Shown: piece by piece, positions 27,126 to 29,969 of the stretch | How positions within the stretch are numbered: position 1 is the first letter of the stretch | Layout: the number at the start of each line of letters is the position of its first letter | Program-made: the position numbers and the translations under genes | Notes under the pieces: generated by a model | The model's input: only the letters and a program-made list of their open reading frames with translations | Databases searched by the model: none | Told to the model about the DNA's origin: nothing | IMG/VR virus record: IMGVR_UViG_3300028886_000037 | Location: 32,001-96,000 of that record | Direction: 5' to 3' (one strand) | DNA length: 64,000 bases | Source: a virus | Taxonomy: Duplodnaviria > Caudoviricetes

Positions 27126-27545
27126 TTACTTTTTGAGGAACAGGTTCTTTGTGTTGGCTAGCTGAACGCCGAGATCGTGGATAGCTGTTCCGATCTTGTT
27201 GATACGAGCGTCGAGAAGCGCATTGACCTTCTTTCTGAACTGTTCGAGAGCGTCATCACGTCCCGTGAAGTCTTCTGGAAGGATCCATTCCTTTTCGATA
27301 TAGCTTGTGAGCTCGTTCACCATGTCGTTCGAGAATCCGTCAAGAGAAGCGATAGCGTCAGCGTTGCCCTTAGAGAAGTACTGAGCGACTAGATTTCCCA
27401 TAGCGGACTTCTGCTCGACCGGGGCTGGAGTAGAAACGTTTGTGCTACTCGGATCCGGAACCTTTCCGTTGATCTCGTCCTCGAACACTTCCGGGCTGTA
27501 GTTAGCATCTTCATTGACTTTCTGTAGATACTCTTTGAATTTCAT
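27126..27545 (-). CDS. Putative internal head protein (capsid-targeting-like N-terminus)
   Basis: MKFKEYLQKVNED; TATAAATA at 27572-27579 (-). Confidence 0.5.
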   Translation of the reverse strand: MKFKEYLQKVNEDANYSPEVFEDEINGKVPDPSSTNVSTPAPVEQKSAMGNLVAQYFSKGNADAIASLDGFSNDMVNELTSYIEKEWILPEDFTGRDDALEQFRKKVNALLDARINKIGTAIHDLGVQLANTKNLFLKK

Positions 27546-27682
27546 AGGTTTTACCTCTTATATCTCTAGTTTATTTATACTCTCATGTTCAAAGAAAAAA
27601 ATCATATACTTAGCAAATTGATACGAATTTGCACTAAAAATAACAAAAAAATCAAAAATAAACACGTATAAATATAATATAG

Positions 27683-27780
27683 ATTATTGGATTGGACTGG
27701 AATCTAATAATAGGAAACGAATTTAAAAAGGCTAGGAATAGTCTTAAATCCTATTGGTACCAGTCCTACTAATAGGATTT
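27683..27780 (+). ncRNA. Structured 5' leader of tnpB: three hairpins with complementary (kissing) loops
   Basis: Stem 27683-27711 with loop GGACTGG; small stem 27728-27745 with GGAA loop; stem 27746-27780 with loop CCAGTCC. Confidence 0.65.
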
Positions 27781-27786
27781 TTTTGT

Positions 27787-28983
27787 ATGAAGAAAGGACT
27801 AGAAGTAAGGTTATACCCATCTAAGGAACAAAGAGTACTCATTGACAGAACTCTAGGTTGTTCTCGTTTTGTGTATAATCGTGTTCTAGCCTTAAAGAAA
27901 GAACTATGGGAAGACTATAAGCTATCATTCAATCCCAACCTGAAGAGTTTTAAGGAAGAATGGAAATTTCTGACGAAAGTACCAAGTCAGGCATTAGCAA
28001 ACAGTTATGTGGATTGCATGACTGCTTATAATAACTGGTTCAATTCACTAAAAGGAAAATCTAAAGCTAAACAATCATACCCAAAGTTCCATAAGAAAGG
28101 ACAGAAAGACTCCTTTAGGATTGCTGCTACAAAGACTTCTAAAGGCTATGATGTAAGGATAGAGGACTATGAACATATTAAAGTCCCAAAGTTAGGTGCA
28201 GTTAAATTCCGAAACTATAATGGAATAGACTGGTCTAAAGTTCACATCTATAACATAACGATTAAAAAGACTCCTACTAATAAGTATTTTGCTAGTCTTT
28301 GCTGTGAACTTCCAGAACCTGAATATGTAGAGCCTAAATTTAATGCTTGTGGGTTTGATCTTGGAATTAAAGACTTTGCTATCTTTGATTACGGCGAAGT
28401 AATTGAAAATCCAAAGTATTATAGAAAGACTGAATATAAGATAAAGAAAACACAAAGAGTTTTAAGCAAATGTGTAAAGTTTAGCAAGAACTACAAGAAA
28501 GTCAAGTTAAAACTCGCTAAACTACACGAAAAGATTAGGAATCAAAAAAAGAACTTTCAACACAAATGGTCAAGGAAAATAGTGAACGAAAACCAAGTCA
28601 TTGTTTCCGAAGACTTGAATGTTAAAGGCATGTTGAAGAACCATAAACTTGCAAAATCTATACAAGATGCAAGTTTTAGTTCATTCTTCAATATGATAGC
28701 ATACAAATCTAACGAACAACATAGACAGTATGTAAAGATAGGAACATTCTATCCATCGTCTAAGTTATGTCACTGTTGCGGATTCAAGTACAAAGGTCTA
28801 AAACTCGAAGAACGCTTTTGGACTTGCCCACAATGCGGAACATACTTAGACCGTGATGAGAATGCGGCAATCAATATACTAAACGAAGGTCTTAGAATTT
28901 TAAGTAGAAATACCGTAGGAAGTACGGGAAACGATAAATCGTTTAAGCCTGTTGATACTGATTTGAGTACAAACCTTGAGTAG
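27787..28983 (+). CDS. tnpB: RNA-guided endonuclease TnpB (IS200/IS605 OrfB), catalytic residues intact
   Basis: HTH RLYPSKEQ..GCSRFVYN; RuvC-I GFDLG; RuvC-II VSEDL; Zn finger CHCC/CPQC; RuvC-III DRDENAAINI. Confidence 0.95.
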   Translation: MKKGLEVRLYPSKEQRVLIDRTLGCSRFVYNRVLALKKELWEDYKLSFNPNLKSFKEEWKFLTKVPSQALANSYVDCMTAYNNWFNSLKGKSKAKQSYPKFHKKGQKDSFRIAATKTSKGYDVRIEDYEHIKVPKLGAVKFRNYNGIDWSKVHIYNITIKKTPTNKYFASLCCELPEPEYVEPKFNACGFDLGIKDFAIFDYGEVIENPKYYRKTEYKIKKTQRVLSKCVKFSKNYKKVKLKLAKLHEKIRNQKKNFQHKWSRKIVNENQVIVSEDLNVKGMLKNHKLAKSIQDASFSSFFNMIAYKSNEQHRQYVKIGTFYPSSKLCHCCGFKYKGLKLEERFWTCPQCGTYLDRDENAAINILNEGLRILSRNTVGSTGNDKSFKPVDTDLSTNLE

Positions 28984-29078
28984 GAATCAGTCATAGTTTG
29001 TAGACATTCTGTAAGCTACGCTGGAAAGTCATCTGTTTTAGCAGAGTGACTTACTTCATACTCTTACCAGCCGTCGAA
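28905..29078 (+). ncRNA. Putative omegaRNA (reRNA) scaffold plus guide
   Basis: Overlaps the tnpB 3' end (ACCGTAGGAAGTACGGGAA...), contains the subterminal hairpin, ends TTCAT; predicted guide ACTCTTACCAGCCGTCG. The 5' boundary is approximate. Confidence 0.6.
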
Positions 29079-29969
29079 CGGGTCAAACGGATCAGATTTA
29101 CGCTTCTGATTGACTATCTGCGGCGGTTCGTCTTGCGGTTCGTAGACGTGAATTCTCGTGTTGATCTGAGATTTTTGGATGATTTCTGGCTCTTTGCCTT
29201 CCGATTTTCGCTCTTTCTCAGTGTAAGGATTCACAGTGTCTTCGTTCTTCACGTAGTCATTTACCGCTAAAATGTCGTGATGCGACTCGATGTCTGCTGT
29301 TCTGTTCTCTATGTCGAAGGTCTCTGCGAGCGACGTGAACTTCTCGATCGGCATATCGTCGTCGTTCTCGTTCATCACGTCCACGTCCTCGTGATTGTTC
29401 TTCCAGATTCTCAACGTGAACGTGTAAGTGATCGGAGTTCCGAGGAATGCAGTTCCTTCTCCAAACGCCTTCACGTTGATGATCTCGTAGTACTTGTCGT
29501 TGAACTTGAAATACATCAAGTCGCCGATCTTCGGCTTATACATCTCGTACTTGATCGCAGTCCTGTCGTAGTCGTACTGGCTCGCTTCGTTGAAGTGTGC
29601 GATAGTCGCCTGGACTTCGAAGACTTCCTCGTAGAGCATACCCTGAAGCTGGTACTTCTTCTGGAGATTCGGAATCTTGTCAGTGTAGACGGATAGTCTG
29701 AATCGACGGACGATATTCTCCAACGGATCTTCGCCGAAGAGACGGTCACGCTTAGTAGAGATCTGCTTCACGTAGTAGTCGATCTCGAATCCGAACTGAT
29801 TGTAAGCTTCCGAAGTCAGAGAGCTCATCAAAGCTGCTTCGTTAGCGTAGCAGCTGTTTGGATCAGTGCCATCGAACGGAAGAGACTTGTTCCAGTCCCA
29901 ACCGCTAACGGTGCAGCCTCCTGAGCCGCCCCAGATTCTATTGAACTCTTCTTGAAAATCTGTACTCAT
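29064..29969 (-). CDS. gp14: Neck protein gp14-like
   Basis: G.EIDYYVK....DRLFGEDP, PKIGDLMYF, YYEI; C-terminal DPF; start at MSTDF (29969). Confidence 0.85.
   Translation of the reverse strand: MSTDFQEEFNRIWGGSGGCTVSGWDWNKSLPFDGTDPNSCYANEAALMSSLTSEAYNQFGFEIDYYVKQISTKRDRLFGEDPLENIVRRFRLSVYTDKIPNLQKKYQLQGMLYEEVFEVQATIAHFNEASQYDYDRTAIKYEMYKPKIGDLMYFKFNDKYYEIINVKAFGEGTAFLGTPITYTFTLRIWKNNHEDVDVMNENDDDMPIEKFTSLAETFDIENRTADIESHHDILAVNDYVKNEDTVNPYTEKERKSEGKEPEIIQKSQINTRIHVYEPQDEPPQIVNQKRKSDPFDPFDGW

What the first reader, a model, noticed from the sequence alone, without database searches (positions are those of the whole stretch)
27667..27789. Kissing-loop RNA leader between the late promoter and the tnpB start codon
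Seen: hairpin 1 is ATTATTGGATT-[GGACTGG]-AATCTAATAAT. A small hairpin AAGGCTA-[GGAA]-TAGTCTT carries a GNRA loop. Hairpin 3 is AAATCCTATTGGTA-[CCAGTCC]-TACTAATAGGATTT, followed by TTTT-GT-ATG. The two 7-nt loops are exact reverse complements and GC-rich in a very AT-rich context. All stem mismatches are G-U compatible on the + strand, which points to RNA. Hairpin 3 looks like a terminator and buries the only SD-like AGGA. Inference: a cis-acting attenuator or translational switch, or a discrete ~100-nt RNA, that throttles a toxic nuclease; alternatively a remodelled left end. I cannot place it in a named family.
Basis: partly seen in the sequence, partly recalled or inferred. Interest (0 to 1): 0.8.

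Follow-up and report, generated by a model that had tools for sequence, protein, structure and literature searches.

The report
Kissing-loop RNA leader of phage tnpB
The stretch in front of this rumen phage's tnpB nuclease gene is a real, uncatalogued folded RNA leader: the tips of two of its hairpins always pair with each other, in 19 different sequence versions across related copies, and it most likely keeps the selfish nuclease gene weakly expressed.

Summary
Observation confirmed. The three hairpins are at the stated places. They fold far better than shuffles on the + strand only (z -3.6), and no Rfam family matches.

About 30 related copies turned up in phage contigs. The two 7-nt loops are perfectly complementary in 19 different sequence versions (0 of 20000 permutations reach the observed pairing). 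All three stems also co-vary. The loops change at least as fast as synonymous sites, about twice as fast as the rest of the leader, and always in pairs. The only exceptions are one chimeric copy and one dead remnant.

The leader is the 5' UTR of a 1481-nt IS200/IS605-type tnpB-only element (27580-29060). The element carries its own T4-type late promoter, and an empty-site allele exists. The true left-end hairpin lies further upstream, so the leader is not a remodelled end.

Promoter plus leader behaves as a portable cassette. It sits in front of several TnpB lineages 38-47% identical to each other, and in front of one protein with only a weak TnpB-family match. 73 distant tnpB loci lack it.

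New here: a nested extended fold uses the same loop pairing and is iso-energetic with the three-hairpin fold in every copy, which suggests a two-state switch. Function is inferred, not shown.

This scan has already noted the same kind of leader in other rumen phage genomes.

The parts
27572..27579 (-). Phage late promoter TATAAATA of the divergent gene 27126-27545. Read on the + strand (TATTTATA) it is the flank or target motif after which every copy of the element sits.
   Evidence: empty-site joint
27580..29060 (+). The whole mobile element: 1481 nt, IS200/IS605 type, tnpB only, 25-39% GC in a ~50% GC phage. A 7-nt repeat ATACTCT leaves the boundaries ambiguous by up to 7 nt.
   Evidence: Homology among copies is confined to this span. 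Contigs of a related phage join 27576 to 29058, skipping 1481 nt. Composition.
27587..27634 (+). Left-end subterminal hairpin region, homologous to the right-end hairpin. The inner hairpin has decayed in this copy.
27667..27674 (+). The element's own T4-type late promoter TATAAATA facing tnpB. The predicted transcript start is about 27680-27682.
   Evidence: Near-invariant in the copies aligned; three later copies differ. Motif enrichment. The start site is inferred from T4 late-promoter geometry.
27683..27711 (+). Hairpin 1: 11-bp stem, 7-nt loop L GGACTGG at 27694-27700.
27712..27715 (+). Upstream AGGA 'decoy'. Together with the 3' arm of hairpin 1 it can pair with the anti-SD strand 27749-27759 in the extended fold.
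   Evidence: (repeat D13)
27728..27745 (+). Hairpin 2: 7-bp stem, GGAA tetraloop.
27746..27780 (+). Hairpin 3: 14-bp stem, 7-nt loop L' CCAGTCC at 27760-27766. Its 3' arm holds the SD-like AGGA at 27774-27777.
   Evidence: (99.6% of cells paired)
27778..27786 (+). U-run (T7) and spacer before the start codon. A run of 4-5 T right after the stem is kept in nearly every copy; one copy has it interrupted.
27787..28983 (+). tnpB, 398 aa, RuvC residues D191, E275 and D357 present. It ends about 20 codons earlier than its relatives because CAG has become TAG at 28981.
28984..29060 (+). Right end: variable hairpin, conserved subterminal hairpin (about 29026-29052) and terminal CTTCATA. This is the presumed omega-RNA scaffold region.

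Best explanation
The stretch is the 5' untranslated leader of the tnpB messenger of a phage-adapted IS200/IS605-type element. It is transcribed from the element's own T4-type late promoter, so the RNA begins 1-3 nt before hairpin 1.

Hairpin 3 buries the Shine-Dalgarno-like AGGA and is followed by a U-run. By itself it should block ribosome entry and may stop part of the transcripts.

The 7-nt loops of hairpins 1 and 3 pair with each other. This can happen in two ways:
- as a kissing complex that locks the closed three-hairpin state (off);
- after strand exchange, as the central helix of one long hairpin. In that fold the anti-SD strand is taken by an upstream AGGA-containing copy of the SD arm, and the real SD sits at a frayed helix end (on, or leaky).

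The leader would thus be a ligand-free two-state switch. It sets a low share of translatable, read-through tnpB messages late in infection.

Shown: the hairpins, the loop pairing, near-equal energy of the two folds, portability of the promoter-leader cassette, and decay of the pairing in a dead copy.

Inferred: transcription from this promoter, the effect on translation or termination, and which of the two folds is the active one.
For: Structure:
- It is + strand specific.
- On 21 distinct copies 94% of stem cells are paired and 13 pairs show changes on both sides, with 0 of 500 shuffles as good.
- RNAalifold finds the same three hairpins on its own.
- In the stems G.T occurs 37 times against 13 A.C.

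Loop pairing:
- There are 19 distinct perfectly complementary 7-mers.
- Cognate loops share 7 nt of complementarity; non-cognate loops mostly share 3-4. No permutation of 20000 reached the observed sum.
- Two near-identical leaders differ at 7 of 121 non-loop positions but at 6 of 14 loop positions, and all six changes are compensated.

Link to tnpB expression:
- The promoter, the start of hairpin 1, the AGGA, the U-run and the ATG keep fixed positions in all copies.
- A 166-nt promoter-plus-leader block, 93% identical, ends exactly at the ATG of two TnpBs that share only 39% identity.
- A remnant whose tnpB is cut after codon 52 has three uncompensated loop changes.

Two states:
- With the loop pairing enforced as a nested helix, the fold is the MFE in 9 of 21 copies and lies within 0.3-5.3 kcal/mol in the others (window: -30.2 against -27.6).
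- This also holds in the most diverged copies.

SD burial: the unpaired probability of the four AGGA bases is 0.04-0.60 in the window copy.
Against: There is no expression data for the leader. The RNA-library contigs that matched did not cover 27705-27822.

Nothing shows what would shift the balance between the two folds. A purely intramolecular lock gives no reason for the loops to change faster than the rest of the leader, which hints at an interaction in trans.

Covariation supports the upper stems of the three-hairpin fold only. No pair specific to the extended fold was seen to co-vary.

The stem of hairpin 3 has only 3 G-C pairs, so it is a weak terminator at best.

A natural relative lacks promoter and leader altogether (L023), so the leader is not essential to the element.
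Confidence: 0.6

Rival explanations
1. The functional product is a discrete small RNA of about 100 nt, running from the late promoter to the hairpin 3 terminator. It acts in trans through its two loops. It could repress messages of copies that carry the same loop type, a copy-number control comparable to IS10 RNA-OUT or to plasmid antisense RNAs. The loop pair would then be an identity tag.
For: Hairpin plus a 4-7 U-run is kept in every copy. Hairpin 1 starts at the predicted 5' end. The loops change at or above the synonymous rate while the rest of the leader is conserved (p-distance 0.43-0.49 against 0.24-0.39 and 0.16-0.21). Loop types do not follow the TnpB tree. Co-resident copies in one bin or phage all carry different loop pairs: L098-L102, and two copies each in G001 and G006. 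A tnpB-deleted mini-element keeps hairpin 1 with the loop of the full copy on the same contig.
Against: Both partners lie on one molecule, so pairing in cis should win. With about 19 types, different loops in co-resident copies are expected by chance. The pairing decays in the copy that lost tnpB, which argues against a job independent of tnpB. No short RNA has been observed.
Confidence: 0.2
2. The leader mainly protects or processes the RNA. A hairpin at the very 5' end, together with a compact kissed fold, would shield the tnpB/omega-RNA precursor from host or phage RNases. Alternatively, the ~30-bp coaxial helix is an RNase III site. Either way there would be no switching.
For: Hairpin 1 begins 1-3 nt after the predicted start in all copies. 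The kissed hairpins would stack into a long, nearly continuous helix (inference from the solved ColE1 and TAR-type kissing complexes, from general knowledge).
Against: This does not explain why the SD and the U-run are built into hairpin 3 in every copy. It does not explain the conserved upstream AGGA copy. It does not explain the equal energy of the two folds.
Confidence: 0.1
3. The structure acts as single-stranded DNA of the element's top strand, for example as an extra recognition or pausing signal during TnpA-type transposition or replication. The covariation would then reflect a long quasi-palindrome kept in step by template switching.
For: IS200/IS605 elements move as top-strand single-stranded DNA (established knowledge). 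The DNA fold gives the same hairpins (z -3.5). The whole span 27683-27780 is an imperfect long inverted repeat centred on hairpin 2.
Against: The left- and right-end hairpins that match each other lie elsewhere. The exchanged cassette runs from the promoter region exactly to the ATG. The structure is placed with respect to promoter, SD and start codon. A relative lacking it keeps normal ends (L023). The phage encodes no Y1 transposase.
Confidence: 0.07

Closest known systems
RBS-sequestering hairpins of T-even phage homing endonuclease genes (I-TevI, I-TevII, I-TevIII, segB, mobE; review PMC2988022)
   Same: A selfish nuclease gene in a T4-like phage is driven by a TATAAATA late promoter. Its SD, about 8-9 nt before the AUG, is buried in a stable hairpin.
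   Different: In T4 the late promoter lies inside the structure, so late transcripts escape it. Here the promoter lies upstream of all three hairpins, so the late transcript keeps the inhibitory hairpin. A second hairpin pairs with its loop. The gene is an RNA-guided TnpB inside a transposon, not a protein-only homing endonuclease.
IS200 tnpA leader (PMC4513863, PMC5435999)
   Same: Same transposon superfamily. The 5' UTR stem-loop occludes the SD and keeps expression very low, and the 5' UTR also gives a stable small RNA.
   Different: IS200 regulates the Y1 transposase and uses an antisense sRNA (art200) plus Hfq. No loop-loop pairing within the leader is described. There is no sequence or Rfam relation.
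Regulatory kissing loop of cobalamin riboswitches (L5-L13; PMC5028336)
   Same: The loop of an upstream hairpin pairs with the loop of the hairpin that holds the ribosome-binding site, and so controls translation.
   Different: There the kiss is stabilised by a ligand bound to a large aptamer, and the loop sequences are conserved. Here there is no aptamer, no Rfam match, and the loops are the most variable part.
Antisense kissing systems of plasmids (ColE1 RNA I/II, R1 CopA/CopT, pT181 attenuator; PMC3753616)
   Same: Fully complementary 6-7-nt loops. The kiss progresses to an extended or four-way structure. The loop sequence acts as a specificity determinant that differs among relatives.
   Different: Those systems use two RNAs transcribed from opposite strands. 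Here both loops lie on the same strand, 59 nt apart in one leader.

Membership tests
T-even HEG RBS-sequestering hairpin with embedded late promoter | SD of a selfish nuclease gene buried in a stable hairpin | tested here: met
   AGGA at 27774-27777 lies in the 3' arm of hairpin 3 (-14.3 kcal/mol); unpaired probability 0.04-0.60
T-even HEG RBS-sequestering hairpin with embedded late promoter | Late promoter placed so that late transcripts lack the inhibitory arm | tested here: not met
   TATAAATA at 27667-27674 lies 8 nt before hairpin 1 and 71 nt before hairpin 3
IS200/IS605 left-end (TnpA-binding) hairpin | Subterminal imperfect palindrome similar in sequence and orientation to the one at the right end | tested here: not met
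   The hairpin that matches the right end lies at about 27587-27634. Hairpins 1-3 have no counterpart at the right end, and the loop 7-mers occur nowhere else in the element.
Any Rfam 15 family, including riboswitches and the IS605-orfB motifs recalled from memory | Covariance-model match | tested here: not met
   No hit at gathering score in the window. Only chance-level hits at E >= 0.18 on 27540-29100.
Cobalamin-riboswitch-type regulatory kissing loop | Loop of an upstream hairpin pairs with the loop of the RBS hairpin | tested here: met
   19 co-varying loop pairs
Cobalamin-riboswitch-type regulatory kissing loop | Ligand-binding aptamer upstream | tested here: not met
   Hairpin 1 is a plain 11-bp stem-loop; no Rfam match
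Plasmid-type antisense kissing control | Partner loops on two RNAs made from opposite strands | tested here: not met
   Both loops lie on the + strand, downstream of one promoter. The minus strand does not fold.
Intrinsic terminator / attenuator | Stem-loop followed directly by a U-run, with a competing alternative pairing | tested here: inconclusive
   The scan flags hairpin 3, but it has only 3 G-C pairs. An alternative fold exists. Termination itself cannot be tested here.

The most novel reading that the evidence does not exclude
The two loops form a fast-evolving identity tag. Each TnpB element lineage would carry its own orthogonal 7-bp 'address', under diversifying selection. Leader RNAs could then recognise only messages of their own type, in trans as well as in cis. 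That would make this an incompatibility-like, RNA-based copy-number or competition system among RNA-guided nuclease elements that share a phage or a co-infected cell.
Probability: 0.2. Interest if true: 0.85.

Novelty: new variant of a known kind. Interest (0 to 1): 0.68.

Why it matters
TnpB is the ancestor of Cas12 and a genome-editing tool, yet little is known about how its natural expression is controlled. I found no paper describing a structured 5' leader for it.

This leader is a compact natural RNA device of about 100 nt with a programmable 7-bp loop-loop contact, and nature has already made it in at least 19 orthogonal versions. It is attached as a portable cassette to several TnpB lineages in large phages of gut and rumen.

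It offers a directly testable case of how a phage-borne selfish nuclease is kept in check. It also offers a ready set of orthogonal kissing pairs for RNA engineering, and a new family for RNA databases.

Tried and rejected
- RNA evidence: four metatranscriptome runs held only contigs. None covered 27705-27822, so nothing can be said on transcript ends or level.
- Near-identity search of the GenBank phage collection with 27400-29200: no match.
- Rfam at permissive E-values: only chance hits.
- Loop 7-mers elsewhere in the element, the omega-RNA region or the flanks (a possible link to guide or target): none.
- Design-level scan of the own genome: one other hairpin pair, at genome positions 204633-204782. 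It lies inside a coding region and is within the chance rate.
- Design-level scan upstream of 73 distant tnpB loci: none.
- My first covariance model had hairpin 3 one column out of register. The counts are void and were redone.
- The pseudoknot could not be entered in the count of structure pairs, because loop 1 is not in one register in the alignments. I used my own permutation test instead.
- Co-resident copies all have different loops, but with about 19 types this is expected by chance and is not used as evidence.
- Literature searches for TnpB with kissing, leader or late promoter found nothing on this structure.

Full report
**What is there**

The window is part of a 248-kb IMG/VR virus record. 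A T4-type neck protein gene lies next door. TATAAATA occurs 12 times in the window against 0.54 expected.

- TATAAATA at 27667-27674;
- hairpin 1 at 27683-27711, loop GGACTGG;
- hairpin 2 at 27728-27745, loop GGAA;
- hairpin 3 at 27746-27780, loop CCAGTCC, then T7-GT-ATG.

The ATG at 27787 opens a 398-aa TnpB with OrfB_IS605, Cas12f-like TNB and HTH domains. Its RuvC residues are conserved.

RNAfold returns exactly the three hairpins for the + strand: -31.1 kcal/mol, z -3.56. It does not do so for the minus strand (z -1.44).

Two small corrections apply. A second AGGA follows hairpin 1 at 27712-27715. The GNRA loop of hairpin 2 is present in 17 of 22 relatives, not in all.

**Context: a mobile element, and the leader is not its left end**

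tnpB lies in an AT-rich island (25-39% GC) within a ~50% GC genome. Relatives were fetched from viral contigs, metagenomes and MAGs. They share homology only from about 205 nt before the ATG to about 77 nt after the stop, and their flanks are unrelated.

Contigs of a ~95% identical phage, found in two metatranscriptome libraries, join 27576 directly to 29058 and skip 1481 nt. This is the empty site. The element is therefore about 27580-29060.

Every copy follows TATTTATA, the reverse complement of the late promoter, and ends in (C)TTCATA.

A subterminal hairpin near the left end (window 27587-27634) resembles one near the right end in sequence and orientation. The consensus reads GAAAAATCC[CATGC-TTTA-GCATG]GTGATATGAA on the left and GAAAAGTCC[TCTGC-TTTA-GCAGA]GTGATAGAC on the right. 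The three hairpins lie inside the element, between its own late promoter and tnpB.

The phage encodes no Y1 transposase.

**Covariation**

Aligning the upstream regions showed that the promoter is near-invariant and that both loops differ from copy to copy while staying complementary.

There are now 19 distinct loop pairs, each 7 of 7 Watson-Crick:

GGACTGG, GGACGAG, GGGTCAG, ATAGCGG, GGGCAAG, ATTACGG, GGGCTAG, ATTGCGG, GTAGTGG, GTACTGG, GTAGCGG, GTCACGG, GGATCGG, GTAGCAG, GGTCTGG, GTACGAG, CTGGTCC, GAGCGAG, CTCGCAC.

In a cognate against non-cognate matrix, cognate apical regions share 7 nt of complementarity (9 nt in two copies). Non-cognate ones mostly share 3-4. None of 20000 permutations reached the observed sum.

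The stems are supported too:
- 94% of cells are paired.
- 13 pairs show changes on both sides.
- Hairpin 3 is 99.6% paired.
- All slid controls are far lower.

RNAalifold finds the same three hairpins by itself. G.T pairs outnumber A.C 37 to 13, so the + strand is the one that folds.

There are two exceptions:
- L100 combines the hairpin 1 loop of one type with the hairpin 3 loop of another, giving 5 of 7 pairs. It looks like a recombinant.
- The remnant L108/L109 has its tnpB cut after codon 52 and shows three uncompensated loop changes plus a stem mismatch.

**Rates**

The p-distances compare as follows:

| Sites | p-distance |
|---|---|
| Loops | 0.43-0.49 |
| Fourfold degenerate sites of tnpB | 0.24-0.39 |
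| Rest of the leader | 0.16-0.21 |

These figures cover pairs with fourfold distance below 0.45 (98 of 153). Among the more diverged pairs the loops are not faster (0.40 against 0.51).

Loop type does not follow TnpB relatedness.

The clearest case is two leaders from different phages (G001 and G006). They differ at 7 of 121 non-loop positions but at 6 of 14 loop positions, and all three changed pairs are compensated. The loops are the fastest-changing part of the leader, yet they always change together.

**Distribution**

A covariance model finds one copy in the own genome. Among 100 tnpB loci it finds copies only in the close family. A design-level scan finds nothing upstream of 73 distant tnpB genes of 38-46% identity, mostly from non-phage contigs.

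The leader does occur in front of several TnpB lineages that are only 38-47% identical to each other. It also precedes a 431-aa protein that has no BLAST or Pfam similarity to TnpB and only a weak hit to a TnpB PHROG (E 6e-7).

In L232 and L233 a 166-nt block of promoter plus leader is 93% identical and stops exactly at the ATG. The two TnpBs behind it share 39% identity. Promoter plus leader is thus a portable expression cassette.

One relative (L023) has lost the cassette altogether. One mini-element keeps only hairpin 1 fused to the omega-RNA region.

**Two folds**

The stems of hairpins 1 and 3 are direct repeats of each other, while their loops are inverted. As a result the 3' arm of hairpin 1 plus the following AGGA can pair with the 5' arm of hairpin 3, and the two loops can then form an ordinary nested helix.

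With that helix enforced the window leader folds at -27.6 kcal/mol, against -30.2 for the three hairpins. The loop duplex alone is worth -11.3. The extended fold is the MFE in 9 of 21 copies and lies within 0.3-5.3 kcal/mol in the rest. It is within 1-2 kcal/mol in the most diverged copies.

The loop covariation therefore fits both a kiss on the three-hairpin fold and the central helix of an extended fold. The upper stems co-vary only as the three-hairpin fold predicts. I found no pair specific to the extended fold that co-varies.

In the extended fold the anti-SD strand is occupied and the SD sits at a helix end.

**Mechanism proposed**

This is inferred. Late transcripts start just before hairpin 1. 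Hairpin 3 hides the SD and, with its conserved U-run, may terminate some transcripts (flags it, but it has only 3 G-C pairs). The loop pairing either locks this closed state or nucleates strand exchange to the open fold.

The result would be a low, built-in share of translatable tnpB messages. I put 0.6 on cis control of tnpB expression. The evidence for this reading:
- promoter, SD, U-run and ATG keep fixed positions relative to the structure;
- the exchanged cassette ends at the ATG;
- the pairing decays once tnpB is dead.

The main weakness is that a purely intramolecular lock does not explain why the loops change so fast. That keeps open a trans-acting small-RNA or identity-tag reading (0.2). 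Protection or processing of the RNA (0.1) and a single-stranded DNA role (0.07) are less likely, for the reasons listed under the rivals.

**Comparison with known systems**

The nearest functional relatives are the following.
- The RBS-sequestering hairpins of T-even homing endonuclease genes (PMC2988022). There the late promoter lies inside the hairpin; here it does not.
- The IS200 tnpA leader (PMC4513863, PMC5435999).
- The regulatory kissing loop of cobalamin riboswitches (PMC5028336). That loop depends on an aptamer; none is present here.
- Plasmid antisense kissing systems, whose loops set specificity (PMC3753616). Those use two RNAs from opposite strands.

No Rfam family matches, and literature searches found no description.

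I class it as a new variant of a known kind. The principle of an RBS hairpin plus a regulatory kiss is known. The architecture, the hypervariable loops and the TnpB association are new.

Earlier notes of this scan report leaders of the same design in other rumen phage genomes. My results agree with them, but I did not use them as evidence.

Noticed in passing
window 27572-27583 and 29054-29064: The element sits directly after TATTTATA, the reverse complement of the late promoter of the divergent gene 27126-27545, as do all other copies. Contigs of a related phage carry the empty site (27576 joined to 29058). The target motif of this TnpB element family thus coincides with the phage late promoter.
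   Followed up: partly
window 28981-28983: The window TnpB stops at TAG where relatives have CAG and run about 20-57 codons further into the omega-RNA region (398 aa against 401-455).
   Followed up: partly
window 27587-27634: The inner left-end hairpin (consensus CCATGC-TTTA-GCATGG) has decayed in this copy, while the right-end hairpin (about 29026-29052) is intact. This copy may no longer be a substrate for a TnpA.
   Followed up: partly
L185:5850-6050: A tnpB-deleted mini-element lies on the same contig as a full copy. It consists of the left end, a shortened promoter and hairpin 1 (same loop GGACGAG), fused by a microhomology (AATTTTAAG..TAGAAATA) to the tnpB 3' end and omega-RNA region.
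   Followed up: partly
L023:1400-1510: A 62%-identical TnpB copy has the left-end hairpin joined directly to TAGGATTTTTAAATG. It has no promoter and no hairpins 1-3.
   Followed up: no
L357:1594-2889: A 431-aa protein in a 355-kb phage lies behind a leader of the same design. It has RuvC-like motifs by eye (IDMN, IEDL, NPAYSSQ) but no Pfam hit and no BLAST similarity to the window TnpB, only phrog_12300 at E 6e-7. It may be a very divergent TnpB-like nuclease.
   Followed up: partly
L021:1497-1510: One copy has ATGAAAAAAAG (A7 instead of A6) at the start of tnpB. This puts the ATG out of frame and may be an assembly error or slippage in the A-run.
   Followed up: no
genome G000:C1:204633-204782 (outside the window): A second hairpin pair with 7-nt complementary loops (CCATAGG/CCTATGG). 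It lies inside a 274-aa ORF on the other strand and is within the rate seen in shuffled genomes, so it is probably chance.
   Followed up: yes
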